Assembly: GCA_033764315.1 (NCBI GenBank)
Contig: JANRJA010000145.1
Coordinates: 1-55,630, forward strand
DNA: 55,630 nt
Source: Oculatellaceae cyanobacterium bins.114
Lineage (GTDB): Bacteria; Cyanobacteriota; Cyanobacteriia; Elainellales; Elainellaceae
Reading direction: 5' to 3'
Shown: positions 6,982-28,594 of the stretch, one piece after another
Numbering within the stretch: the stretch's first letter is position 1
How the letters are laid out: each line of letters begins with the position of its first letter
Translations under genes and position numbers: made by a program
Notes under the pieces: generated by a model
What the model saw: the letters and a program-made list of their open reading frames with translations, nothing else
What the model was told of the DNA's origin: nothing
The model's database searches: none

Positions 6982-8814
6982 CTAAACCTCTTTCAACAAA
7001 TCAGTTGAGTTAGCAAGAGGAGTAGCAATCATGACGGGTTCTTGATAGAGCGGCACCGTAAAAGTCACTGTCGAACCCAAACCCTCACCCATGCTATAAA
7101 AGTTGACTACGCCACCCATCGCTTCTACCAGTTTTTGAGAGATAGTCAGCCCTAACCCTGTGCCCCCATATTGGCGGGTTCGAGAGCCATCCACCTGGCT
7201 AAAAGTCTGAAACAACTTATCTTGCTTTTCGAGTGAAACTCCAATGCCTGTGTCTGCCACACTAATCTTGACAAACCCAGGTCGTTCTTGATTGTGAACG
7301 ATCACTTTTTTAGGCAAAATTTCGGCACTAATCGCAATGCCGCCCTCATGAGTAAACTTGATGGCATTCCCTACCAAATTCAGCATGACTTGCAAGAGTC
7401 GCTGATAGTTGCCATAGAGAATAACCTCATCTCGGGTGTCAGGAGTGAGAATCTCAAAACTCAAATGCTTTTGCTGTGCTTGCGGTCGCGTAAATTTCTC
7501 GACATCCGTTAACAAATCGTCTAGCTTCACCGGATCGAGGTCTAACGGCATCTTGCCTGCTTCTATCCGCGCGACATCTAAGATGTCATTGATGATATTT
7601 AGGAGGTGAACAGCAGAGCGATGGGCTTCTTCAATGAATTCACTTTGCTCAGCCGGGTCGTCTGCCATGCCATCCATGATCAGCTTGAGAAAGCCAATCA
7701 TCCCGTTGAGGGGAGTCCGCAACTCATGGGAGGTGTTCGCCAAAAATTCGCTCTTGAGGCGAGACGCTTCCTCTGCTTGCTTACGAGCTTCCTCTAGCTC
7801 CTGGTGTTGTTGACGCAGGCTATCGTTTGCCCGTTGCAGCTCAGCCGCAAGACTATGACTAGCCGCAAACAAAGTTGCATGGGCAATTCCTGTTCCAACC
7901 TGGTCTGCAAGCTCTTGAATCAGTTCAATTTCAACCTCGTTCCAAATGCGGCTGCGATCGAACTGATACAGAATGATCACCCCATTGGCTTGGTCTTTAT
8001 AAGAAGTCGGAACAGCCAACAAAGAATAGGGTTGCCCCTGTTCAGAGCGAGTGACATTCACCACGGCAGGTTTGAGAGTGGTTAGAGCCTGCTGTAAATA
8101 AGGTTCGTTGTCGATTAAAAACTGCCGCCCTAGCATCGACTTCAACGTCGATTGATAATATTCAGCGACTACTTCAACCTGGGTATCAGAGACCTCATAG
8201 GGACAGAGCAAACAGCGACTGGCTTCGAGGGCAATCCCTAGACCGTTGACGGTTTGCTGCCAAATGGTTTCTAGATCAAGGGTTCGACGAATATTCCAGG
8301 CAACCTGGGTCAGCAGCTTTTGATAGCGACTGGAACTGGGAGGAAGAGTGGGATAGGCAATACTATCCACTAATTCAAAGGCCTCAAATTTTGAGCAGAC
8401 ATAGAGAAATTGCCCAACAATCACCACCGCTGTAGCAGACCCCTGAGGCATCAAAACGGGGCTAATGTTGAGGTCAAAAACGAGATATTGATCAGCGCAG
8501 AGAAAAGGGTAATTGAACCGCTCTGGTACCAAATACTCTAAAATTCGGTGAATTCGGCTGAGATAGGACTCCTGGTTGATCGGCAAAAAACCATCTTCGA
8601 GTGGCTTACCCACTAACTGATCGCAAAGAAGGTGGTAGTGTTCGGCATCTCGCCAATAAAACGATAAACATTGACCAGCAGCGTTTTGGACAAGAACAAG
8701 GTCAACTCCAGGAGTGGGTAGAACAGGGTCCAATTGCTTAGCTACTGTCAATTCGACAGACTTCGTTAGGGGAAATGGGAGATCGCCAGGCAAAGTCATC
8801 AGCGTCAACTGCAA
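6982..8814 (-). CDS. GAF sensor histidine kinase
   Basis: GAF domain, coiled coil, H-box SHELRTPLN, N-box NLVGNAIKFT and G-boxes DTGIG and GTGLGL. Start uncertain. Confidence 0.92.
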   Translation of the reverse strand: MQLTLMTLPGDLPFPLTKSVELTVAKQLDPVLPTPGVDLVLVQNAAGQCLSFYWRDAEHYHLLCDQLVGKPLEDGFLPINQESYLSRIHRILEYLVPERFNYPFLCADQYLVFDLNISPVLMPQGSATAVVIVGQFLYVCSKFEAFELVDSIAYPTLPPSSSRYQKLLTQVAWNIRRTLDLETIWQQTVNGLGIALEASRCLLCPYEVSDTQVEVVAEYYQSTLKSMLGRQFLIDNEPYLQQALTTLKPAVVNVTRSEQGQPYSLLAVPTSYKDQANGVIILYQFDRSRIWNEVEIELIQELADQVGTGIAHATLFAASHSLAAELQRANDSLRQQHQELEEARKQAEEASRLKSEFLANTSHELRTPLNGMIGFLKLIMDGMADDPAEQSEFIEEAHRSAVHLLNIINDILDVARIEAGKMPLDLDPVKLDDLLTDVEKFTRPQAQQKHLSFEILTPDTRDEVILYGNYQRLLQVMLNLVGNAIKFTHEGGIAISAEILPKKVIVHNQERPGFVKISVADTGIGVSLEKQDKLFQTFSQVDGSRTRQYGGTGLGLTISQKLVEAMGGVVNFYSMGEGLGSTVTFTVPLYQEPVMIATPLANSTDLLKEV

Positions 8815-8980
8815 ACAACAGAATAAATAGAGTTCAGCCTAAAAAGGCTAAGGAATACCACCACGCTAAGATGCAACCCTGTTTGCTGAAGAGTCTGTAA
8901 TGTTAAGGCTCAATGCCTTGTGGTAAAACCTCCGCTCTAACTTAGCTTATCTATAGCCATGTGATCCACAAAAAAATGAG

Positions 8981-9739: not shown

Positions 9740-11542
9740 ATGACTGACGTACCTGTTTCCCGAATCCGAAATTTTTCGATCATTGCTCACATTGATCACG
9801 GCAAATCGACCCTGGCTGACCGATTGTTACAAACGACGGGCACAGTGAGTGCGCGTCAAATGAAGGAACAGTTCCTCGACAACATGGATTTAGAGCGAGA
9901 GCGAGGCATTACGATTAAACTGCAAGCGGCTCGCATGTCTTATCCCTCTCAAGATGGTGAAACCTATGTGTTGAACTTGATTGACACACCGGGGCATGTT
10001 GACTTTTCTTATGAGGTGTCGCGATCGCTCGCTGCCTGTGAAGGAGCACTGTTGGTGGTGGATGCCTCACAAGGGGTGGAGGCTCAAACGCTTGCCAACG
10101 TCTACCTGGCTTTAGAACACAACTTAGAAATTATTCCTGTTCTAAATAAAATTGACCTGCCAGGGGCAGAGCCTGAGCGGGTGAAGCAGGAAATTGAGGA
10201 AATTATTGGGCTGGATTGCAGTGGAGCCATTCTAGCTTCGGCAAAAGAAGGAATCGGCATTGATGAGATTCTGGAGTCGATTGTGCACTTGGTTCCGCCG
10301 CCTCAAGATACGGTCAAAGAACCCTTACGGGCGTTAATCTTTGATAGTTATTACGATCCCTATCGGGGAGTCATCGTTTACTTCCGTGTCATGGATGGTG
10401 CTTTAAAAAAGGGCGATCGCATTCGACTGATGGCATCCCATAAGGAATATCAGATTGATGAACTGGGGGTACTCTCTCCTGCTCAGGTGCAAGTGGAAGA
10501 ACTGCACGCAGGGGAAGTGGGTTATTTAGCCGCTGCGATTAAAGCCGTTGAAGATGCTCGTGTGGGAGATACGATTACCCTCGCGACTGCCGCTGCCAAA
10601 GAACCCTTACCGGGCTACACCGAAGCAAAACCAATGGTGTTTTGTGGGCTGTTTCCGACCGACGCTGACGATTTTGAAAACCTGCGGGAGGCGTTAGAGA
10701 AATTGCGCCTCAACGATGCGGCTCTGCAATATGAGCCTGAAACCTCTAGCGCGATGGGGTTTGGTTTTCGCTGTGGGTTCTTGGGGCTGTTGCACATGGA
10801 GATCGTGCAAGAACGCCTGGAACGCGAATATAACCTGGATTTGATTACAACGGCTCCTTCAGTGGTCTATCAGGTCACCAAGCTCAGCGGTGAAGTGCTG
10901 CATATTGATAACCCCAGCCACTTACCCGATCCTCAAGATCGCGAAAAGATGGAGGAGCCATATGTGCAGGTAGACATGATTACCCCTGAAGAGTTTGTTG
11001 GGGCACTGATGGAACTCAGCCAGAGCCGCCGGGGAGTGTTTAAAGACATGAAATACCTGGCACAGGGGCGCACTACTCTGATGTATGAGATTCCTCTAGC
11101 AGAAGTGGTGACCGACTTTTTTGACCAGATGAAGTCGCGATCGCGTGGGTATGCCAGCATGGAATATCATCTCATCGGCTACCGAGAAAACCCGTTGGTG
11201 AAGCTGGACATTCTGATTAATGGCGATCCTGTCGATCCCCTGGCGACGATTGTGCATCGAGATAAAGCCTATTATGTCGGTAAGGCACTGGTAGAAAAGC
11301 TCAAGGAACTGATCCCCAGGCACCAGTTCAAGATCCCCATCCAAGCGACTATTGGCAGTCGGGTAATCGCCAGTGAGCACATTCCAGCCCTGCGTAAGGA
11401 CGTGTTAGCAAAATGCTATGGCGGTGACATCAGCCGTAAGAAAAAACTGTTGCAAAAACAAGCCAAGGGTAAGAAACGATTGAAGGCGATCGGGACGGTG
11501 GATGTGCCTCAAGAGGCGTTTATGGCGGTGCTGAAGCTTTAA
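9740..11542 (+). CDS. lepA: Elongation factor 4 (LepA)
   Basis: [28 protein letters not shown] and C-terminal [19 protein letters not shown]; 600 aa from ATG 9740. Confidence 0.99.
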
Positions 11543-11959: not shown

Positions 11960-13894
11960 ATGCATTGGTTATCTAGCTCTTCTCCGTCTATTTCTCGACG
12001 TACTTTACTAAAACTCCTTGGAATCGGCACAGTAGGTGGATTAGTTGGCTATTCCCGGTTGATGAAACCCCAGCCAACTGTTTTTAAGCAAGATATGCTT
12101 GCCCTCCCTTATAACGTTGATCAACCTAAGCAAGTCGTGGTGGTTGGTGGAGGATTGGCAGGCTTAGCTTGTGCCTATGAGTTAAGCCAACGCGGATTTG
12201 CGGTTACGTTGCTAGAACGGGCAGCACAACTCGGTGGCAAAATTGCCAGTTGGGACATCCAAGTAGGGGATCAAGCTTTTCGCATGGAGCATGGGTTTCA
12301 TGGTTTTTTCCCACAATATTACAACCTCAAAAGCCTTGTCTCAGAGTTAGAGATTGAGAACCATTTCAAATCGCTCAACTACTACTCAGTGGTTTACAAG
12401 GATAAGAAATATGACCCAGAGGTCTTTCGTCCCAGCCATTCTGCCTTTCCCTGGAACATTGTTGATCTGGCGATCGCCTCAACGAATCGCTTGCAGTGGG
12501 GCTTGAATCTAACCAAATACGCGCACTGGCAGGTCTTTCGAGAGATCACCGGATTTCACCCTCAGAAGAGCTACAACCGATTGGATCATCTCTCTGTGGC
12601 TCAATGGGTTGAAAATGAGTTTCCACGCGGGTTGTACGATCTTTACTTCTTACCCTTTGCCAAATCTAGCTTGAACTCCCCAGATGTTATGAGTGCAGCA
12701 GAACTGATGCAGTTCTTCCACTTTTATTTCTTTGGCAATCCAGAAGGTTTGGCATTTAACGGCACCGTTCAAGATATGGGCAGAAGCCTGGTAGATCCGA
12801 TTGTCAATGCTATTACGGCAACGGGGGGACAGGTGATTACTGAGGCCACCGTCAATCGTGTTAGCTGGGATCAAGGGCAAATCAGCAGTCTAGACTATCA
12901 GGTGGGTGGCAATAGCGGCACTGTGCCCTTTTGGGTCAAGCGCAATCCTCTGTTGAGCACAGATGAGGTGGAGTTTTTTGGAGCCGGGGATGCGGTCTAT
13001 GCGATCGCGGCTAACCAACGAGAAGCGATGTCTCTCTCTTGTACTCATCAGGGGTGTACTGTTCATACTGAAACCGATGGGCACTTTCATTGCCCGTGTC
13101 ATGGGGCTGAGTATGACGACCGGGGTCGAGTCTTGCGAGGCCCTGCTCAACGCGATTTGCCCCGGTTTCAAGTGCTCAATCGCAACGGAGATCAGATTCA
13201 ACTGGTGGCAATGCAAGGGGATACAACTCCGACTCAAACGGTTCAGGCCGACTATTATGTTTTTGCAGCAGACGTTCCTGGTGTTCAGCATTTGTTCTCA
13301 CTGGCCAGCGGAGAACCTCATGCTCAGGTAGCGCAACAAGTGCAACAACTCACTGTTGCCGATCCATTTGCGGTGGCTCGGTTCTGGTTTGATCGCGATT
13401 TCGATTGGGAACACAGCGACTTCACGTCGTTGTCAGGCTACCGCCTCACCGATAGCATCACTCTATATCACCGGATTCAAGACGATTACATCGCCTGGGC
13501 AAGTCGGACAGGAGGCAGTGTCGTCGAGTTGCACGCCTATTGCTATAAAGAGAGAGAATTTCCCACACAACAGGCATTGCTCAACACCTTTGAAAACGAA
13601 CTGTATGAAATCGTGCCTGCCCTGCAATCGGCAAATCTGTTGCACTGTGAGTTGGTGAATCAGAAAAACTTTGCCGGATTTCCACCCAATAGTTTTAGCG
13701 ATCGCCCTGAAACCGCTACGCTAGTGTCTAATTTGATGTTTGCCGGAGACTGGGTGAAGATGCCATTCCCCTGTGGCTTGATGGAACGTGCCGTTAGCAG
13801 TGGTTTATTAGCCGCCAACGAAATTTTGTATCGAGAAGGTGTCCAACGGCGATCGCTCCTGACGGTTTCCCCTCAAGGGCTTCTGCAAATCTAA
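11960..13894 (+). CDS. cruE: CrtU-like carotenoid desaturase/methyltransferase with Rieske insert (probable CruE)
   Basis: FAD motif GGGLAG, EHGFHGFF, internal Rieske motifs CTHQGC and CPCHG, C-terminal AGDW...MERAV and an N-terminal RR motif. This is the architecture of cyanobacterial CruE. Confidence 0.72.
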   Translation: MHWLSSSSPSISRRTLLKLLGIGTVGGLVGYSRLMKPQPTVFKQDMLALPYNVDQPKQVVVVGGGLAGLACAYELSQRGFAVTLLERAAQLGGKIASWDIQVGDQAFRMEHGFHGFFPQYYNLKSLVSELEIENHFKSLNYYSVVYKDKKYDPEVFRPSHSAFPWNIVDLAIASTNRLQWGLNLTKYAHWQVFREITGFHPQKSYNRLDHLSVAQWVENEFPRGLYDLYFLPFAKSSLNSPDVMSAAELMQFFHFYFFGNPEGLAFNGTVQDMGRSLVDPIVNAITATGGQVITEATVNRVSWDQGQISSLDYQVGGNSGTVPFWVKRNPLLSTDEVEFFGAGDAVYAIAANQREAMSLSCTHQGCTVHTETDGHFHCPCHGAEYDDRGRVLRGPAQRDLPRFQVLNRNGDQIQLVAMQGDTTPTQTVQADYYVFAADVPGVQHLFSLASGEPHAQVAQQVQQLTVADPFAVARFWFDRDFDWEHSDFTSLSGYRLTDSITLYHRIQDDYIAWASRTGGSVVELHAYCYKEREFPTQQALLNTFENELYEIVPALQSANLLHCELVNQKNFAGFPPNSFSDRPETATLVSNLMFAGDWVKMPFPCGLMERAVSSGLLAANEILYREGVQRRSLLTVSPQGLLQI

Positions 13895-20919: not shown

Positions 20920-21855
20920 TTGAACGCTGATCTGCAAAAACCATCAACCCAAACAGGTGCCATCTACGCCATTCTCGCCTATACCACCTGGGGCATGTTG
21001 CCCATCTACTGGAAATTTTTTGGGCAGGTTCCGGCAATAGAGGTGCTCACACATCGGGTAATCTGGTCGATGGTTTTTCTCACAGGGTTGCTGTTTTTGC
21101 AACACCGCCGAGCAGAATTTAGTAGCCTGTGGCAGGCTCCCGGTAAATTAGCTGTGTTGTTTACCACCGCTGCTCTGCTTGCCTTTAATTGGGGTTTGTA
21201 TATTTACGCGGTCAACGCCAATCATGTGATCGAGACCAGTTTGGGTTACTTCATCAACCCACTGGTCAACGTGCTGCTGGGGTTTATCTTCCTCAAAGAA
21301 AAGCTGACTCGATGGCAATGGTTTGCGGTTATGTTAGCCACCGTTGGAGTCGCTTATTTTGTGTTGCAATTTGGTCGGGTGCCGTGGATTGCCTTAGCTC
21401 TGGCTTTTTCGTTTGGGTGCTATGGCTTGTTACGCAAAATGGTGGCAGTCGCTCCAATGGTGGGTCTGGCAATGGAAACGTTGCTCGTGACGCCGATCGC
21501 TCTAGCCCTGACCGGATATTGGGCAGTCACAGGCGTGGGTCACTTTGGCATGGGTTGGGGCATCACCCTGTTATTTATGGGAGCCGGGATAACGACTTCG
21601 TTGCCGTTGCTGTGGTTTAACAATGCCGCTAAACGAATGCAACTCTCGACGTTGGGGTTCTTTCAATACCTCGCACCTAGTTTGCAGTTGGTGCTAGGGG
21701 TGTTGCTCTATCATGAGCCATTTACTGTGACTCATATCGTCACGTTTGGGTTGATCTGGTCGGCTCTGTTGGTGTATTCCACTACGTCGTTGATGCGGCA
21801 GAGGGGAGCCGGACGGGTCTTCGGCGAACCTACCAACCCATCCGACTCGGTTTGA
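20920..21855 (+). CDS. rarD: EamA family transporter RarD
   Basis: WGMLPIYWK, ETSLGYFINPL, YGLLRK and LGFFQYLAPSLQ; about 10 transmembrane helices. Confidence 0.92.
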   Translation: MNADLQKPSTQTGAIYAILAYTTWGMLPIYWKFFGQVPAIEVLTHRVIWSMVFLTGLLFLQHRRAEFSSLWQAPGKLAVLFTTAALLAFNWGLYIYAVNANHVIETSLGYFINPLVNVLLGFIFLKEKLTRWQWFAVMLATVGVAYFVLQFGRVPWIALALAFSFGCYGLLRKMVAVAPMVGLAMETLLVTPIALALTGYWAVTGVGHFGMGWGITLLFMGAGITTSLPLLWFNNAAKRMQLSTLGFFQYLAPSLQLVLGVLLYHEPFTVTHIVTFGLIWSALLVYSTTSLMRQRGAGRVFGEPTNPSDSV

Positions 21856-21946
21856 TTTTTGGATAGGCTTTCCCTATCGCTGGAGCAGACTGGACTCTCT
21901 GTATACACCTGATCGAATCCCTTCAACCAGCTCTGATGGTAGTTAG

Positions 21947-22097
21947 GTAGGGTGGGCACTGCCCACAGCCTGATTATCAATGTATCCTTGGCTAAAATTA
22001 TTGCCAAAGTGGAGCACTCAAATGCTTATTTTGTGGGCGATGCCCACCCTACAATTCTCAAATGCCTATTTTGTGGGCGATGCCCACCCTACCATTC
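21947..22097. repeat. REP cluster upstream of RAYT1
   Basis: GTAGGGTGGGCACTGCCCAC at 21947, and two inverted copies GTGGGCGATGCCCACCCTAC inside a 40-bp tandem duplication (22017-22056 and 22057-22096). Confidence 0.85.
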
Positions 22098-22191
22098 TGT
22101 CCACTATTGATGTCGAACCTGTTTCTAAAAGCCGGACGCTGGGTAATCTCAGGATAAAGTGTTATCCCCTACCCTCGATCGCACCGCTTCA

Positions 22192-22761
22192 ATGCCCCAA
22201 TATCGTCGTGTTTATACTCCCGGTGGTACCGTTTCTCTGACTCTTGTCACCTATAACCGTATTCCTATTTTTGCCGACTCCCAAAACATTGTCTACTTGC
22301 GATCGGCTTTAGCGGCACTGCGTTCTGAGATGCCCTTTGAAATTACGGCTGCTGTTATTCTGCCCGATCATCTCCATTTTCTGTGGACATTACCTCCTGA
22401 TGATTGCAATTATTCCAAACGAATTGGGCGGCTAAAAGTACTGTTCACCCGATCCTTACGAGGAAAACAAGCTTTACCTCAAAATGTTTCGTTATCTCGT
22501 CGTAAGCATCGAGAGAGTAATGTGTGGCAACGGCGATTTTGGGAGCATACGATTACGGATGAAACAGATTTGGCAAATCATTTTGATTATCTGCATTACA
22601 ATCCGGTCAAACATGGTTTGGCTAAATGCCCCCACCAATGGCAATATTCTAGTTTTCATCGATATGTGCAGAGAGAAGTATATAACCGTGATTGGGGATG
22701 TCAATGTGATGGGAAGAGTTCAGAGTTGTCGATATTTGATGATGTGAATATGGGGGAATAA
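22192..22761 (+). CDS. REP-associated tyrosine transposase (RAYT) 1
   Basis: YRR...TLVT, LPDHLH (HUH), WQRRFWEH, YLHYNPVKHGL and WQYSS; flanked by REPs. Confidence 0.92.
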   Translation: MPQYRRVYTPGGTVSLTLVTYNRIPIFADSQNIVYLRSALAALRSEMPFEITAAVILPDHLHFLWTLPPDDCNYSKRIGRLKVLFTRSLRGKQALPQNVSLSRRKHRESNVWQRRFWEHTITDETDLANHFDYLHYNPVKHGLAKCPHQWQYSSFHRYVQREVYNRDWGCQCDGKSSELSIFDDVNMGE

Positions 22762-22771
22762 GTTGGATGCT

Positions 22772-22987
22772 TTAGTGCCCACCTACCTCTATACATAAAG
22801 CTTTAATAGGGTGGGCACTGCCCACCCTACGCGACTGAACTAGCAAGTCATACAAGCCGTTGATCATGCGTTCTCCAAGGGTAAAGCGATGATCGCGGGG
22901 TAGGCGATTGAGGATGGGGATGTACCATTTCACCAGGTCATAGGTTTTTTGAATCACAGGCAGATCGAGTGACGCAGGTTTGATCAT
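22772..22987 (-). pseudogene. avd: DGR accessory variability determinant Avd, C-terminally truncated
   Basis: [41 protein letters not shown] matches the N-terminal half of cyanobacterial Avd as I recall it. The frame then reads into the REP at about 22830. Confidence 0.85.
22807..22830. repeat. REP downstream of RAYT1
   Basis: TAGGGTGGGCACTGCCCACCCTAC, with a partial copy at about 22774-22787. Confidence 0.85.
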
Positions 22988-23162
22988 GAAATCCCCTGAT
23001 GTAGAGTACAATAGAGTTCGAGTGCTATTAATGCCACTAGATATAGAGCATAGTGCATAAGTGACAAGACCCCTAATTTGTAAAAAAAAATTTGAGCGCG
23101 CAGAGCGCGAAGGAAAGAAGAGTAAAGAAGTACAAAGCGCAAGAGGGGAAAAGGGCAAAGGG

Positions 23163-23300
23163 CTAAGCAGTCCTGGAAGAAACACAGACGACTCGAAACC
23201 CAATGTCGTAGTCCCGATAACCGGGCGTGAGCCGATTGCGGTTAGCAGAGCGGCAGAGCCCAGGAGCGTCGTGCCAGGAGCCGCCCCGCAGCACGCGATA
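23163..23300 (-). other. DGR variable repeat (VR) candidate
   Basis: 3' end of the CLec domain (RGGSW to GFRV). Putative variable codons end in C/T (CAC, GAC, GCT, CTC, AAC, AAT, CTC, GGT, TAT, GAC, TAC, GAC), and avd lies immediately downstream. Confidence 0.7.
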
Positions 23301-26300
23301 GCGATCGTCACCTTCTGTGACCCAGGCACTTCCATCAGTCGGTGCTCCCTGATAGGACGGATGCCAATGATCTAAACACCATTCCCAGACGTTGCCATGC
23401 ATTTCTGATAAACCAAAGGCATTGACAACCCCAAAACTACCGACCTCACTAGTTTTTTGTCGATAGATTCCTTTGACCCCGTCTCCGTAGGTGTAGTTGC
23501 CGTTATAGTTAGCAAGATCGGTTGAGAGGGTGTCTCCCAAATGAAACGGTGGATAGACTCTCCCCTTGCCTTCTGAGAGAGGGGCTGGGGGTGAGGGGAC
23601 AGCCCGACAGGCATACTCCCATTCGGCTTCAGAGGGCAAGCGATAGATTTTACCCGTGTGCTGAGATAGACGGTCACAAAATTCCATCGCCGCACGCCAA
23701 GACACGACTTCTATGGGGTGGTTGTCGCCTTTAAAGTTGGCTGGGTCAAGTTCTAGATCGCGGTTGACGCGGGGTAACTGGGCGACAAATCGCCATTGCG
23801 CCTGGGTAATGGGAAACTGGCTCATGGAGAAGGACGGCACGGTGACGAGGTGTTGAGCCTCCACATCCACATCCTTGAGTTCTGGAAAGGAATATTGATA
23901 CCAATCTCGACCTACTTCATCGGGGGGAGAACCCATAAGAAACTCACCTGCCGGAATTGTCACCAAATCTAAGCTCAGGTCTTCCGTTAGATTCTCCTTG
24001 AAGACGGGAATGGATTTAACCTGGGCAATGACTTCCCCCTGCTTTAACTCCACAATCAGCATAGGCACTGGTTCACCACTAGCGGCACCAATCAGGCTCA
24101 AGGCTCTGGTGGCACCTTGCCGAAGCGGGAGGGGTTGACCATCACTTTCCACTATCTGACGGAGTTCAGCCTGTCCTGCCTTCATCATGCCCAGTGCTTC
24201 AGCCGCGCTGCGTCGCACCGCGATTTCTTCGTCGGCGTGCTGCAACAGGGCAAGCAACTTTTCAGCCCCAATTCCCAGCTTGCCTAATGCTTGAGCCGCG
24301 GCTTGCCGTGCTTCCAGGGTTTGATTGCGGTTCTCCAACATGCCAATCAAGTTGGGAGCGGCGATTTTGGCAGCGGCTCCGCGTTGACTCAAATCGTTAG
24401 CCGCCCGGATTCGATATTCCAATTCTGGGGCAGACAGTTCTGAGATTAACTTACGAATTCGACGGTTTTCTTGCACCCGCTCTAATTCTTTGCGGTTAAC
24501 TCCCGCTTTAGGATCTAACTCGGTTGTGACAAAGTCTGGAATCTTTGCCTCTCGTGCCCTATCTTCACAGCAGTCCCACACGGCCAGCAAAAAGCCACGA
24601 ATCACGTCTGAGGTTTCGTTAGCCTGAGCAAGTTTCTGATCGATCTCTTGAAAGAACTCTTGCCAAGCACTGTCTGGATTTTCCTGGCGGCAATTGTGTT
24701 CGACTCGATAGGTCGCGGCTAGATATTCTGCCAGTGGATCGAGGATGATGCGAATTTTATCTCTCGGTTCTGGGGATTGCACCACCAGCAATCGTTGCTC
24801 TAGATAAGTGAGGCGTGCTTTGGCATCGTCGGTTGCTGCTTTTGACAGGGCGGCGATCGCCTCTTCTTTTTTCACCAATGTCGGTCGATAGGTTTGCTTG
24901 AGGCATTCCCAAGCAACGATTTGAGCATCGCGTTGTATCTCTAGATCATCTCGCTTGTCGGGGATGTTTTGATTGAGGCGATTTAAGTAGCTGAGCATTA
25001 GCTTGGGCACCGAATCGGGCAAGATGCCCCCTGCTCCTTCTCGTTCTTGAATCAGGTGGTCAATATAGAGCCGTGCTAATAACACCGTGATGGGACGTTC
25101 ACCCGCAATGCGGCGGAGGCGATCGCAGGCATCCGAATATTCATCATCCCCAAACAAAGCTTGTTTGTGAATCGATTCTAGGTAAGCAGACATAAACGCC
25201 CAGAGGCGATTGGACTCAATTTGCAAGGGTTTCAAAACGGTTTTTCCAGCCCCTCCGAGAGGTTCCTGTAATCGAGACGTAACGATCAATGCTTTGGCTG
25301 GAAAGCTGGCTAAATCTGGAGTGACCCGTTTGCGGGTTGTTTCGCTCATCTCTGATAGGTGATCGACAATGACCAGAATGCGCTGGCGTTGCAGCAATTT
25401 TTGCAGCAAGTGGGGTGCGATATCTTCTGTCTGATTGATTAGAGCTTTGAGTTGCCCTGCGATCGCATCAACCAGCGTCTTGTTTTCATCCAACTCGGTT
25501 TCGATCAATACGGGCAGCAGACGATGAGCCAAAAGCTGTTTCTCTAGCCCCCACTGGGCAATCTGGCAGGTCAAGCTGGTTTTTCCGGCTCCTCCTTCCC
25601 CCATGATCAGCAGCACGGCTGTTTTTCGCTTAAAGGAATCACTAAGATCACTGCCCTTCAGTTGATTAATCAGTGTTCCATCCAGATGAACAGGCAGAGG
25701 AATATGAATGTTCCTATCCTTGACGGTATCTAGCTTTAAGAACCCTGCTTGAGTTTCCTGCCAATGCTGTTCTACCCAAGCATCTAATACACGAGGATGG
25801 TACTTTAAGGGCGACAACAGCTTCAACAACCAAGCTAGCCAGCTTCCCACGTGGGGGATCTTTTCCACCGCCTCGATCTTCTCATCCTCAATCCCGAATT
25901 TCAGTAACCATAACGGTTTCCATACAAAAATGCTGCCGTATGCACTTCCTATCACAACCAGCACTAACCCTGTTGCTACGATCCAAGGATAGCTTTGCCC
26001 CCAAGACACGACTTGATAGGTTGGCTGGGCGGTCAAGCTTCTCAACTGGGTTTGCAGTGCATTCCGAGTCAGGCGTAGGGATTCTAAATCGTCTGCTTTC
26101 GTTGCCCAATTGCTTTCATCTTGTTCGAGCAGTGTAAATACGCTATCTAGCTGTTGATAAAGGTCTTGCAAGTTCTGAATGTCTTTGGTTTGCCAACCTT
26201 GCAATTGATCTGAATACATTTGACTATCTCGACCGATCGCGCTTAAAGCCCGAATTGCATTGCTGCGAACTTGTAAGTCACTATCGCCCTGACTCATCAA

Positions 26301-26633
26301 CACCAAATCAGGAACTGCTGATTTAGCTTCCCAACCCATTTGTCCCAAGGTTTCGGCAGCATAAAACCGTGTCGTTGCATCGGCACTCAAGGCATTTGCA
26401 AGCGGCTGAACGGCTGCCTCACCACATTGCTCTAAAACCTGTTGGGCATCTACACGCTGTTGATCGTCTTGAAGCTGCTCAATGGCTTGCTCCAAAGAGT
26501 TGCGATCGCAGGGTTTACCATTATTCGCTAGAGCCGGAAGAAAGGGGAATACCACCAGAACCGTAACAACTGGTAGCCAATGTCCAACCCATCTGCCCAT
26601 AAACTTAGCTCTGGATAAAATGCGAAAAACCAA
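23163..26633 (-). CDS. HEAT repeat / NACHT-like NTPase / HEAT / FGE-sulfatase (CLec) protein, DGR target
   Basis: Signal-like N-terminus (possible start 26600), HEAT repeats, a transmembrane helix, Walker A GEGGAGKT, Walker B VIVDHL and more HEAT repeats. FGE motifs [23 protein letters not shown] and RVLRGGSW...GFRVV close the protein. Confidence 0.92.
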
Positions 26634-26811: not shown

Positions 26812-26967
26812 GCTAAACTGAGCATCAAGAGGAAATGGCAGAGTTCTACCGTAAATTCTAGTGAGGTATTGAATTCTGTTTCTGTTATTCCTAAGTATTG
26901 TGATGCGATCGCTTCCAAAGCATCTTAAGTTAGAGTCAGCAGACGCAGGGATAGTGCGATCGCCCCG

Positions 26968-27655
26968 GTAGGTTGGGTTGAAGTGACGAAACCCAACTCA
27001 ATCATTCTGTTAAGCAATGCTCCTGATTACCCATACTAATCTCATCTACGATTGGGTCATCAGATGCGTTATCGTCGTGCCATCACACCTAGAGCCACTT
27101 ATTTCTTTACCGTTGTGACTTATCAACGGCAACAACTGTTTCACCTGCCCCAGAACATTGAGCATCTCCGTTACGCTTTTCGCACGGTTAAAGCCAGTCA
27201 TCCATTTACTATTGAGGCGATCGTTGTATTGCCAGACCATCTTCACTGCATCTGGACACTTCCACCAGGTGATGCAGATTTTTCTACACGATGGCGGTTA
27301 ATCAAAACAATCTTTACCCGCACCTGCCCTAATCAACACAAACGGCAACAAAATCAAGCTCGACTGCATAAAAAGGAACAAGCTGTATGGCAACGCCGTT
27401 TTTGGGAGCACCAAATTCGAGATGAGCATGATTTGAATCAACACATCGATTACATTCATTACAACCCAGTGCATCACCAACTTGTGCAGCATCCCAAAGA
27501 TTGGCAATATTCAAGTTTTCATCGGTTTGTAGCCAGAGGGGTATATGAGGTTGATTGGGGAGCAGGAGATGCCATTTTGTTTGAAGTAAATGTTGGATAT
27601 GAGTAACAAATAAGAGATAGGTGAATGTTGGGTTTCCTCCGTCAACCCAACCTAC
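26968..27655 (+). mobile_element. REPtron 2 (RAYT with inverted flanking REPs)
   Basis: GTAGGTTGGGTTGA...AAACCCAAC (26968-26997) and GTTGGGTTT...TCAACCCAACCTAC (27627-27655) bracket the RAYT gene. Confidence 0.8.
27064..27606 (+). CDS. REP-associated tyrosine transposase (RAYT) 2
   Basis: YRR...YFFTVVT, LPDHLH, WQRRFWEH, YIHYNPV and WQYSSF. Confidence 0.93.
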   Translation: MRYRRAITPRATYFFTVVTYQRQQLFHLPQNIEHLRYAFRTVKASHPFTIEAIVVLPDHLHCIWTLPPGDADFSTRWRLIKTIFTRTCPNQHKRQQNQARLHKKEQAVWQRRFWEHQIRDEHDLNQHIDYIHYNPVHHQLVQHPKDWQYSSFHRFVARGVYEVDWGAGDAILFEVNVGYE

Positions 27656-27661
27656 TGGAGG

Positions 27662-28594
27662 CTACTGCCGCAAAAAATCCAGCATCTCCTGATAAAACGG
27701 TAACGCTTTGTTCTGAACCTCAGCGGCAGTGGCTAACACACCTAATACCTCAACCAGTGCCGCTTGTGTTGCATCAATGATCAGCGTATAAAAGGGTTCC
27801 CAGTTGTCAGATTGTTGTCCCTGGATTAAGGCTTCGATGTACCGCTGTCGATTTTCATTTGAGATGATGGCGATCGGATAGCCTGCTCGTAACAACAGCA
27901 AATTCATCAACAGTCGCCCTGCCTGCCCATTGCCATCGCGAAATGGATGAATAGTTACCAATTGGTGATGCGCCTCTGCCGCATAGAGAACCGGGTGCAA
28001 CGCTTGAGTATCCGCAAAATTAAGCCAACTGATAAATTCTGCCATTAGCTCCGATAATAAATCGTGAGGAGGATAGACATACCCCGTTCCCGCTGCCTGC
28101 CCATCTAAAGTCCGGTAACGTCCGGCTTCTTCGGGATGGATCTTGCGGAGAATCAAGCTGTGAATTTAGCGAATTTCCCATTCTCTCAGCGGTATCGATT
28201 GTTGGGCTAACGCTTCGATGTAGGCGATCGCCTCTGCATGTCCAATAACCTCTAAATGCTCCTGAAGCGTTTTTCCCCCAACCGTAATGCCTGTTGTTAA
28301 CACCAACTCTGTTTCACTCTGGGTTAGTGTGTTGCCTTCTAATGCATTGGAATGGTAAGTAAAGCGAACTTGATACCGTTGCCGCAGTTCACTTACAACC
28401 GAAGCAGGCAGCGGACGAAAGGTGTCGAGCCAAGTTTTAAGCTGTTGAATGACTTGAAGCGGTTCTTGTAGGGACATGGGATGAGCCGTTAACCATTGCC
28501 AAAGCAACGTCTCCGCATTCCAAATGCGGTGTTGTTTAAGATAGGCAATTAGTTCCGCTTGGGTTGCAGCCGTATTGCGGAGGTTCACTGTCAT
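27662..28594 (-). pseudogene. Fic family protein with an in-frame stop
   Basis: TYHSNALEGNTL and HPFRDGNGQAGR are in one frame, separated by TAA at 28166-28168 (EIR*IHSLIL). The first Arg of the Fic motif is replaced by Gln. Confidence 0.85.

What the first reader, a model, noticed from the sequence alone, without database searches (positions are those of the whole stretch)
22772..26633. DGR remnant: NLR-like HEAT/NACHT/CLec target with a VR signature plus avd, but no TR or RT in the window
Seen: the 1156-aa gene ends in an FGE-sulfatase domain reading (minus strand) TGG CAC GAC GCT CCT GGG CTC TGC CGC TCT GCT AAC CGC AAT CGG CTC ACG CCC GGT TAT CGG GAC TAC GAC ATT GGG TTT CGA, and avd follows about 175 bp later. 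Known: cyanobacterial DGRs diversify C-terminal CLec/FGE domains by A-to-N mutagenesis of AAY-rich templates, which leaves variable codons ending in C/T as seen here. Inference: this is a hypervariable membrane-anchored STAND-type receptor (N-terminal HEAT outside; NTPase and CLec inside). It is either frozen after losing TR/RT or diversified in trans by a remote DGR.
Basis: partly seen in the sequence, partly recalled or inferred. Interest (0 to 1): 0.8.

Follow-up and report, generated by a model that had tools for sequence, protein, structure and literature searches.

The report
Decayed DGR beside an intact NLR-like receptor
This is a broken diversity-generating retroelement: its NLR-like receptor gene survives intact, but a small mobile unit (a REP-associated transposase) has replaced the mutagenesis machinery, a kind of decay already described in cyanobacteria.

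Summary
The 1156-aa gene (23163-26633, minus) carries two hydrophobic segments, HEAT repeats, a P-loop/NACHT-type module and a C-terminal FGE-sulfatase/CLec domain. An avd reading frame starts 175 nt after its stop.

Homology to intact Avd ends after about codon 49, at a REP hairpin. A REP-RAYT-REP unit (21946-22830) occupies the place of the avd 3' half, RT and TR.

The same genome holds two intact DGRs, on contigs C102 and C236. Their TRs do not fit this VR:
- Non-adenine mismatches are 16-21 of 78-79, against 0-3 of 78-79 for cognate pairs.
- The 3' recognition end matches at 19-21 of 29, against 28-29 of 29.

No other TR exists in the 6.64-Mb assembly, which is 90.7% complete.

An ortholog in another genus (G007) still has its TR, with 17 of 24 adenine and 3 of 98 non-adenine mismatches to its own VR. 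It also has an RT fragment and a RAYT in the gap. Differences among orthologs pile up at template-adenine codons.

Verdict: a frozen ex-DGR target and a new member of a known kind. Remnant targets and IS200/IS605 neighbours are already published for cyanobacteria. The repeated RAYT link to decayed cassettes is the only mildly new lead.

The parts
23163..26633 (-). Target (variable-protein) gene, 1156 aa from the TTG start; an ATG at codon 12 is a possible true start. Layout: signal-peptide-like or TM segment at residues 18-36, HEAT region, TM at residues 218-236, P-loop/NACHT-type NTPase (from about residue 336) with NCH4, HEAT_2, and FGE-sulfatase/CLec domain at residues 889-1149. The reading frame is intact.
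   Evidence: The CLec part hits the solved DGR variable protein TvpA 2y3c (E 1.8e-12) and PvdO 5hha (E 1.8e-27). PADLOC gave 0 families.
23173..23294 (-). Former variable region (VR), 122 nt, aligned to the TR of the G007 ortholog. The variable core, from the first to the last template-adenine codon, is about 23202-23273. The 3' IMH-like end is GGGTTTCGAGTCGTCTGTGTTTCTTCCAG.
23082..23162 (-). Element downstream of the VR: a pyrimidine-rich (CCCTTT/CCCTCTT) tract, then a 5-bp GC hairpin (23097-23109), then a T9 run (23082-23090). The same layout follows all four cognate VRs of the two intact DGRs in this genome and the G007 and G009 orthologs. It is lost in G026.
   Evidence: sequence comparison and DNA fold. 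Whether it acts as a DGR target-recognition hairpin or as a terminator is inferred, not shown.
22772..22987 (-). avd stump, an ORF of 71 aa. Residues 1-49 (22841-22987) are Avd: 78% identical over 46 aa to the Avd of the C102 DGR. The last 22 codons read through REP sequence and are not Avd.
22807..22830 (.). REP hairpin (TAGGGTGGGCAnTGCCCACCCTA) at the avd breakpoint. With up to 2 mismatches the 19-nt core occurs at 14 sites on 11 contigs of the genome.
22159..22761 (+). RAYT_a, a REP-associated tyrosine transposase of 200 aa, convergent with the target gene. It occupies the place where the avd 3' half, RT and TR should lie.
   Evidence: NCBIfam NF047646 at 181 bits against a cut-off of 80; Pfam Y1_Tnp. 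HUH-type (HLH) and YSSFHRY motifs are read from the translation; the motif names are recalled.
21946..22093 (.). Three REP copies (21946-21967, 22032-22052, 22072-22093) on the other side of RAYT_a, just after the EamA-type transporter gene that ends at 21855.
26965..27658 (+). Second REP-RAYT unit upstream of the target. RAYT_b (27052-27606, 184 aa) is flanked by a 17-nt inverted repeat at 26965-26981 and 27642-27658. It is 47-48% identical to RAYT_a and 88% identical to a copy on contig C100.

Best explanation
The locus is a decayed diversity-generating retroelement.

The ancestor had the order target - avd - RT - TR. That order is seen in both intact DGRs of this genome and is implied by the G007 ortholog.

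In this lineage a REP-RAYT-REP unit now sits where the avd 3' half, RT and TR used to be. About 1.8 kb of cassette is gone. What remains is the target gene, its ex-VR, the CT-tract/hairpin element downstream of the VR, and 49 codons of avd.

The target is a probable membrane-anchored STAND/NACHT-type NTPase with a cytoplasmic C-terminal CLec ligand-binding domain. It stays as an open 3.4-kb frame, so it probably still works as a sensor with a fixed binding surface. Its VR is frozen and no longer rewritten.

Shown: the anatomy, the lack of a cognate TR or RT in the assembly, the misfit to the two resident TRs, and DGR ancestry through the ortholog's TR.

Inferred: that the REP/RAYT unit caused the loss rather than arriving afterwards, that the protein is functional, its membrane topology, and a sensor or defence role.
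For: Domain content and the avd stump:
- Target domains.
- avd matches only the first 42-43 profile positions.
- avd homology ends after residue 49.

REP and RAYT:
- A REP hairpin lies at 22807-22830. Three more copies lie at 21946-22093 on the far side of RAYT_a.
- RAYT_a and RAYT_b both score above the NCBIfam cut-off.

No cognate machinery in the assembly:
- No RT was found on C187. Of the 4 RVT_1 hits in the genome, two are DGR-type with IGNLTSQ and YVDD (C102, C236). The other two (C31, C203) look like group II intron RTs.
- No orphan avd C-terminal half or RT fragment lies elsewhere in the assembly.
- No TR was found. A 438-nt VR query hit only paralogous CLec or TR sequences at 67-72% identity.

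Misfit to the resident TRs:
- Cognate pairs in this genome show 12-16 of 26-27 adenine mismatches and 0-3 of 78-79 non-adenine mismatches.
- The window VR shows 16-21 of 78-79 non-adenine mismatches.
- The last 29 nt match at 19-21 of 29, against 28-29 of 29 for cognate pairs.

DGR ancestry through orthologs:
- The G007 ortholog (59% aa identity) keeps a TR with 17 of 24 adenine and 3 of 98 non-adenine mismatches to its own VR. It also keeps an RT fragment (aa 156-257) and has a RAYT with REP arrays in between.
- Amino-acid differences between G000 and G007 fall at 11 of 13 template-adenine codons against 4 of 27 other codons (p = 3.5e-5). All 6 ortholog pairs give p <= 0.0063.
- The G026 ortholog (60% identity, full length) has no TR for its VR anywhere in a 99%-complete genome. 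The same ortholog group therefore persists without a cassette elsewhere.
Against: - The assembly is a 251-contig draft at 90.73% completeness. A cognate TR and RT in the missing part cannot be excluded.
- No population or read data were available for the VR, so present-day invariance is not shown.
- The order of events is not resolved. The RAYT unit may have arrived after a deletion.
- In the window, 4 of the 9 codons that are AAC in the G007 TR end in T rather than C. This fits drift after freezing, but it equally fits a lost TR that differed from the G007 TR.
- NACHT itself scores below Pfam's cut-off. PADLOC has no match. The defence or sensor role is therefore only by analogy.
Confidence: 0.85

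Rival explanations
1. The VR is still diversified in trans. The source would be one of the two resident DGRs (C102 or C236) or a cognate TR and RT in the unassembled 9% of the genome.
For: - Two apparently intact DGRs exist in the genome. The C102 element already serves three VRs.
- The window keeps the element downstream of the VR (CT tract, GC hairpin, T run) that is shared with active VRs.
- Trans diversification of remote targets is reported in Thiohalocapsa (PMC10907252, passages seen).
Against: - The window VR has 16-21 of 78-79 non-adenine mismatches to either TR, against 0-3 for cognate pairs.
- Its 3' 29 nt match at 19-21 of 29, against 28-29 of 29.
- No other TR-like sequence lies in the 6.64 Mb assembled.
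- No third DGR RT or Avd was found.
- Its own cis cassette is visibly destroyed.
Confidence: 0.06
2. Assembly artefact. The contig is mis-joined at the REP repeat, and the true locus carries a complete avd-RT-TR cassette.
For: The genome is a fragmented draft of 251 contigs. The break in avd lies at a repeated element present at 14 sites in the genome.
Against: - The REP core is only about 20-24 nt, shorter than the overlaps assemblers normally need (my own knowledge, not tested).
- No contig carries the missing avd C-terminal half, a third DGR RT or a fitting TR.
- The RAYT gene with REPs on both sides is a coherent unit.
- Comparable decayed arrangements occur in other genomes: G007:C8, G035:C456 and G047:C33.
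Confidence: 0.04
3. It was never a DGR target. It is an ordinary FGE-sulfatase/CLec paralog whose C-terminal codon pattern only resembles a VR.
For: CLec/FGE-sulfatase genes are very common in these cyanobacteria. In one search, 51 of 61 genomes matched, mostly through this domain. By my count of rows, only 14 genomes had a DGR-type RT at 52% identity or more.
Against: - An Avd N-terminal stump, 78% identical to a resident Avd, follows the gene at the canonical spacing.
- The ortholog in G007 has a cognate TR and an RT fragment.
- Variation among orthologs is concentrated at template-adenine codons.
Confidence: 0.02

Closest known systems
Cyanobacterial DGR variable proteins and their remnants (Vallota-Eastman et al. 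2020, BMC Genomics, PMC7517822; passages read)
   Same: - A C-terminal CLec-type VR in a regulatory or signalling-type protein.
- A paralog (all3226) with remnant TR-VR homology and no nearby RT.
- A degraded cassette flanked by transposases.
- IS200/IS605-family transposases as the commonest neighbours of variable proteins (9 VPs in 6 species).
- The idea that diversification parts are removed once a good variant is fixed.
   Different: Here the break can be mapped to the codon: avd is cut at about codon 49 at a REP hairpin. The neighbour is specifically a REP-associated tyrosine transposase (RAYT) with its REPs, not a generic IS. No residual TR is left in the genome. Their supplementary tables were not read.
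NACHT/STAND-CLec DGR targets and incomplete DGR loci of Thiohalocapsa PB-PSB1 and clade 5D/5E DGRs (Dore et al. 2024, PNAS, PMC10907252; passages read)
   Same: - A central NACHT/STAND NTPase fused to a DGR-diversified C-terminal CLec domain.
- TM segments that place the domains in the cytoplasm or the periplasm.
- Incomplete DGRs and remote targets.
- Transposons that shape DGR loci.
- A proposed antigen-sensor role.
   Different: Most of their incomplete loci were still diversified, some in trans. Here no fitting TR exists in the assembly. The N-terminal HEAT region between two hydrophobic segments is not a feature named in the passages I read.
TvpA, Treponema denticola variable protein 1 (PDB 2y3c)
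   Same: A DGR variable protein with the FGE-type CLec fold. Direct sequence match to the window's C-terminal domain, E 1.8e-12, query residues 61-216 of 222.
   Different: TvpA is a small surface lipoprotein served by an active DGR (recalled). The window protein is a 1156-aa multidomain NTPase without a cassette.
REP/RAYT systems, and the TnpA_REP association with prochlorosin genes in picocyanobacteria (bioRxiv 10.1101/2020.03.09.984088; passages read)
   Same: A Y1/HUH REP-associated transposase flanked by REP hairpins, sitting next to a hypervariable gene family in cyanobacteria.
   Different: In that work RAYTs are proposed to drive diversification of lanthipeptide genes. Here they sit in the wreck of another diversifier. 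No paper linking RAYT and DGR decay turned up: one search found 5 papers holding both terms, 4 were listed, and none is on that topic by title or abstract.

Membership tests
Functional DGR cassette | DGR-clade reverse transcriptase ([I/L/V]GxxxSQ motif, recalled) at or near the locus | tested here: not met
   No RVT_1 hit on contig C187. The only DGR-type RTs, both with IGNLTSQ and YVDD, are on C102 and C236.
Functional DGR cassette | A template repeat matching the VR with mismatches almost only at TR adenines | tested here: not met
   No such sequence lies in the 6.64-Mb assembly. Against the resident TRs the window has 16-21 of 78-79 non-adenine mismatches, against 0-3 for cognate pairs.
Functional DGR cassette | Intact accessory protein Avd (about 105-120 aa four-helix bundle, recalled) | tested here: not met
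   Only profile positions 1-43 of 104 (NF033474, 51.7 bits, below the cut-off of 80) and 3-42 of 107 (PF22296) are matched. Homology ends after residue 49.
DGR target / variable protein (by descent) | C-terminal CLec/FGE-sulfatase-fold domain carrying the VR at its very end, followed by avd | tested here: met
   - FGE-sulfatase covers residues 889-1149 of 1156.
- TvpA is hit in the PDB search.
- The avd stump starts 175 nt downstream.
- The ortholog's cognate TR aligns to the last 122 nt.
DGR target / variable protein (by descent) | Variation among relatives concentrated at template-adenine codons | tested here: met
   G000 against G007: 11 of 13 adenine codons differ, against 4 of 27 other codons. 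All 6 pairs among the 4 orthologs give p <= 0.0063. The pairs are not independent.
NACHT-clade STAND NTPase (NLR-like) | P-loop NTPase with Walker A and Walker B, plus NACHT-specific helical domains | tested here: inconclusive
   - Pfam NACHT scores 22.9 bits, below the cut-off of 26.7.
- NB-ARC scores 20.6 bits, below the cut-off of 23.5.
- NCH4 (NACHT C-terminal helical domain 4) scores 58.5 bits, above the cut-off of 27.
- GEGGAGKTS and LVIVDH are read from the translation.
- No PDB relative by sequence and no PADLOC family.
- No structure was predicted.
REP-associated tyrosine transposase (RAYT) | Y1/HUH transposase fold, with a single gene flanked by REP hairpins | tested here: met
   NF047646 scores 181 and 200 bits against a cut-off of 80. 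REP hairpins flank RAYT_a on both sides, and a 17-nt inverted repeat flanks RAYT_b.

The most novel reading that the evidence does not exclude
REP/RAYT units may be a recurrent agent or marker of DGR cassette decay in filamentous cyanobacteria. They would lodge in the avd-RT segment and so 'freeze' NLR-like CLec sensors.

Four loci carry DGR wreckage next to a Y1/RAYT gene:
- G000:C187
- G007:C8
- G035:C456
- G047:C33

Across 61 genomes, 8 RAYT-CLec pairs in 6 genomes lie within 1.3 kb of each other. A uniform-placement estimate expects 0.25 pairs. By contrast, 0 of 15 full-length uninterrupted DGR RT genes has a RAYT hit within 10 kb on its contig.
Probability: 0.3. Interest if true: 0.45.

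Novelty: new member of a known kind. Interest (0 to 1): 0.3.

Why it matters
The locus is a clean, codon-resolved example of how a targeted hypermutation system is switched off while its product is kept. An NLR-like receptor ends up with a binding surface written by a DGR and then fixed.

Loci of this kind give natural 'before and after' pairs. Here the comparison is this gene against the G007 ortholog, which still has its TR. Such pairs could show which receptor variants were selected.

For annotation, the locus shows that an avd hit plus a CLec gene does not mean an active DGR.

The repeated RAYT neighbourhood, if it holds under a better null model, would tie two poorly understood element classes together: domesticated REP transposases and DGRs. 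The basic phenomenon (remnant targets with IS200/IS605 neighbours) is already published, so the gain is incremental.

Tried and rejected
- **Read evidence for VR variation.** The look-up of sequencing runs listed 1 run, a wetland metagenome kept as contigs, holding 0.05 of the sampled words; no RNA holder was listed. Read laying placed 48 short pieces, 41 of them under 90% alike. No listed piece spans the whole stretch, and cover over the VR bins was thin. This is uninformative for diversification or expression.
- **The search for related loci in genome contigs.** The query was residues 1-860. 44 pattern matches came back and none was confirmed, so no organism names were obtained.
- **C203 RT.** It is a group II intron-type RT with an HNH ORF beside it, and it is truncated by the contig end. 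It is not a DGR.
- **C31 RT.** It is a 447-aa maturase-type RT. It is not a DGR.
- **C190 as the missing avd half.** The bAvd hit covers profile positions 45-93 at E 0.83 and lies inside a 440-aa frame. It was not recovered by tblastn with the Avd C-terminal halves. Rejected as chance.
- **Synteny.** No flanking gene of the window is shared with the G026, G007, G009 or G047 loci, apart from one distant gene in G007. The loci cannot be called positionally orthologous.
- **PADLOC.** It found no defence family for the target.
- **PDB sequence search of the NTPase part.** Only designed alpha-repeat proteins matched the HEAT region.
- **Earlier scan notes.** Nothing is on record for this genome or for these words.
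- **Not attempted.** Structure prediction, complex prediction, the large protein-database searches and the protein atlas were not used. The Pfam, NCBIfam and PDB hits already settled the domain identities.
Full report
**1. The observation**

The window is the whole contig C187 of a 6.64-Mb, 251-contig draft genome (90.73% complete, 0.42% contamination).

The ORF 23163-26633 on the minus strand encodes 1156 aa.

Pfam gives the following for this protein:
- FGE-sulfatase at residues 889-1149 (E 3.7e-46).
- NCH4 at residues 672-713 (58.5 bits, cut-off 27).
- HEAT_2 at residues 727-815.
- HEAT at residues 110-135.
- Sub-threshold NACHT (22.9 bits, cut-off 26.7) and NB-ARC matches around a P-loop at residues 336-457.

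A 19-residue hydropathy scan finds two hydrophobic segments, at residues 18-36 and 218-236. The first follows a basic N-terminus and ends in ALA. It is not a dedicated topology prediction.

The C-terminal domain matches the solved DGR variable protein TvpA (2y3c, E 1.8e-12) and PvdO (5hha, E 1.8e-27).

An avd-like ORF starts at 22987, 175 nt after the stop.

**2.

- The 71-aa ORF matches only positions 3-42 of 107 of Pfam bAvd.
- It matches only positions 1-43 of 104 of NCBIfam DivGenRetAVD (51.7 bits, cut-off 80).
- Aligned with the two intact Avds of the same genome, it is colinear through residue 49 (...GLYDLL) and then unrelated.
- By tblastn the homologous part is 22841-22978, 78% identical over 46 aa to the C102 Avd.

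The unrelated tail reads through a palindromic REP hairpin at 22807-22830. Directly beyond it, on the opposite strand, lies a REP-associated tyrosine transposase gene, RAYT_a (22159-22761). It scores 181 bits on NF047646 against a cut-off of 80.

Three more REP copies follow at 21946-22093. The next feature is the end of an EamA-type transporter ORF at 21855 (the family name is my reading of the translation and was not scanned).

A REP-RAYT-REP unit of about 0.9 kb therefore occupies the place where the intact cassettes carry the avd 3' half, RT and TR. That segment is about 1.8 kb in C102.

A second RAYT unit (27052-27606, flanked by a 17-nt inverted repeat) lies about 420 nt upstream of the target gene.

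**3. Is there a TR or RT elsewhere?**

The genome has four RVT_1 matches.
- Those on C102 and C236 are DGR-type, with IGNLTSQ and YVDD (the motif definition is recalled). Each has a full Avd and TR/VR pairs.
- C102 has one TR (8704-8829) and three VRs. C236 has one TR (1629-1760) and one VR.
- C203 and C31 look like group II intron RTs.

For the cognate pairs, mismatches fall at 12-16 of 26-27 template adenines and 0-3 of 78-79 other positions. The window VR differs from these TRs at 15-17 of 26-27 adenines and at 16-21 of 78-79 other positions.

Over the 29 nt at the 3' end, cognate pairs match at 28-29 of 29. The window matches at 21 of 29 (C102 TR) and 19 of 29 (C236 TR).

A blastn search with word size 7 and 438 nt of the gene's 3' end found nothing in the assembly closer than 67-72% identity. 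All those hits were paralogous CLec or TR sequences.

No spare avd C-terminal half or DGR RT fragment exists on any contig.

By established knowledge of DGR homing, the cDNA must match the VR's 3' end and flanks (recalled, e.g. Guo et al. 2011, as cited in PMC7517822). Trans-diversification by the resident elements is therefore unlikely. A cognate TR in the unassembled 9% cannot be excluded.

**4. Evidence from relatives**

Among 61 related genomes, 51 matched the protein at E <= 1e-20, mostly through the CLec domain alone. Long matches were few:

| Genome | Identity and residues covered | State |
|---|---|---|
| G026 | 60%, residues 16-1153 | Full length |
| G007 | 59%, residues 223-1154 | N-terminal part not matched |
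| G002 | 67% and 76% | Two contig-split pieces, each with a TAG |
| G009 | 56% and 70% | Two pieces about 1.5 kb apart, with 2 TAG |
| G047 | 42% | Long match |

The G007 locus reads as follows:
- target;
- CT tract, GC hairpin and T run;
- REP arrays;
- a RAYT (52% identical to RAYT_b);
- more REPs;
- an RT fragment (aa 156-257 only);
- a TR.

That TR matches G007's own VR with 17 of 24 adenine and 3 of 98 non-adenine mismatches. This ortholog group was therefore a genuine DGR target with its own cassette.

Against the G007 TR the window VR differs at 13 of 24 adenines and 21 of 98 other positions (p = 0.004).

At codon level, amino-acid differences between G000 and G007 hit 11 of 13 template-adenine codons against 4 of 27 others (p = 3.5e-5). 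All six pairs among the four orthologs give p <= 0.0063. The pairs are not independent.

G026's VR has no TR anywhere in its 99%-complete genome, although that genome has one DGR RT elsewhere. G009 has no DGR-type RT, and its copy of the gene is broken.

No genome searched has this ortholog beside an intact cassette.

**5. A recurring neighbour**

I cross-referenced RAYT matches (86 rows listed, by my count) with the CLec matches. This gives 8 RAYT-CLec pairs within 1.3 kb, in 6 genomes: G000, G001, G007, G035, G047 and G056. A uniform-placement estimate expects 0.25 pairs (Poisson P for 6 or more = 3e-7).

This null ignores the clustering of accessory genes in islands, so it overstates significance. 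One search also left 73 matches unlisted.

Four of these loci show explicit DGR wreckage:
- G000:C187.
- G007:C8.
- G035:C456: CLec, then an avd with a premature stop that loses homology near codon 66-70 at a different palindrome, then a Y1 transposase on the opposite strand, then a TR-like remnant.
- G047:C33: RAYT, CLec with a TGA, a 45-aa RT fragment, two TR-like copies, and a second CLec.

By my count, 30 rows are DGR-type RT matches at 52% identity or more. Of these, 15 are full-length without stops, and 0 of those 15 has a RAYT match within 10 kb on its contig. The nearest is about 310 kb away in G042:C9. Many of those contigs are short, which weakens the contrast.

The breakpoints and the RAYT or Y1 types differ between loci. 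G035's transposase is 25% identical to RAYT_a, and G007's is 45-52% identical. Independent events are likely, but a phylogeny was not made.

**6. Mechanism**

Best reading (confidence 0.85): an ancestral target-avd-RT-TR cassette lost everything after avd codon 49 in association with a REP/RAYT unit. The VR is frozen. The 3.4-kb target frame remains open and is probably still used as a STAND-type sensor with a fixed CLec surface.

- Shown: the anatomy, the lack of cognate parts in the assembly, the misfit to the resident TRs, and DGR ancestry.
- Inferred: causality of the RAYT unit, present function, topology and a sensor role.

The rivals are trans-diversification (0.06), a mis-join at the REP (0.04) and 'never a DGR target' (0.02).

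**7. Comparison with what is known**

Vallota-Eastman et al. 2020 (PMC7517822; passages read) describe the following in cyanobacteria:
- a variable-protein paralog (all3226) with remnant TR-VR homology and no RT;
- a degraded cassette flanked by transposases;
- IS200/IS605-family transposases as the most widespread neighbours of variable proteins;
- the idea that diversification parts are removed once a good variant is found.

Dore et al. 2024 (PMC10907252; passages read) describe NACHT-CLec DGR targets, TM-dependent localisation, incomplete DGRs, trans activity and transposon-shaped loci.

A preprint links TnpA_REP/RAYT genes with hypervariable prochlorosin genes in picocyanobacteria (10.1101/2020.03.09.984088; passages read).

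A full-text search for RAYT together with 'diversity-generating retroelement' found 5 papers and listed 4. None is on this link by title or abstract. Supplementary tables of the 2020 paper were not read and may bear on it.

**8. Verdict**

It is an ordinary instance of a published phenomenon, so it is a new member of a known kind, with interest 0.3. The only lead beyond that is the repeated association of RAYT/REP units with decayed rather than intact DGR cassettes. That lead needs a proper, island-aware survey.

Noticed in passing
G000 contig C102:7648-13148 (loci L002, L010, L013): An apparently intact DGR with one TR (8704-8829) and three VR-bearing CLec genes (VRs at 7718-7842, 10781-10904 and 12390-12513). 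Adenine mismatches are 12-16 of 27 and non-adenine mismatches 0-3 of 78. One of the three target matches carries a TGA.
   Followed up: partly
G000 contig C236:1629-4180 (loci L011, L014): A second intact DGR with the order target-avd-RT-TR and a single VR. Mismatches are 12 of 26 at adenines and 0 of 79 elsewhere.
   Followed up: partly
G000 contig C110:31772-32530 (locus L003): Another CLec gene with a VR-like end that fits neither resident TR (14-16 non-adenine mismatches). No avd or RT lies on its contig. It lies near the contig end and is possibly a second orphan target.
   Followed up: no
window 23082-23162, and the equivalent stretch after every VR compared: A conserved layout follows the stop codon: a CT-rich tract (CCCTTT...CCCTCTT), a 5-8-bp GC hairpin with a 3-4-nt loop, then TCGAAA/TCAAA and a T run. 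It is seen after all 4 cognate VRs of G000, the window VR, and the G007 and G009 orthologs. The hairpin is missing in G026. It may be the target-recognition hairpin of this DGR clade or simply a terminator.
   Followed up: partly
window 27662-28594 (minus strand): A Fic-domain gene is split into 142-aa and 164-aa ORFs by a single in-frame TAA at 28163-28165. It is a probable pseudogene or a read-through candidate.
   Followed up: no
window 22159-22761 and 27052-27606: Two different RAYT genes, 47-48% identical and each with its own flanking repeats, bracket the target gene within 5.5 kb. RAYT_b has an 88%-identical copy on contig C100.
   Followed up: partly
G009:C1:2959016-2963406 (locus L039): The ortholog in a closed genome is a pseudogene. 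It has two TAG stops, and about 1.5 kb separates the body from the CLec end. The inserted DNA was not examined.
   Followed up: no
G056:C1:6033577-6036933 (locus L045): Two CLec genes flank a RAYT (58% identical to RAYT_b) and a 52-nt-period tandem array at L045:6528-7042. The genome has no DGR-type RT.
   Followed up: no
G000 contig C106:59454-61277: A paralog of the TM-NTPase-HEAT body (43% identity to residues 204-806) lies in a 908-aa frame. The query's CLec part was not matched there.
   Followed up: no
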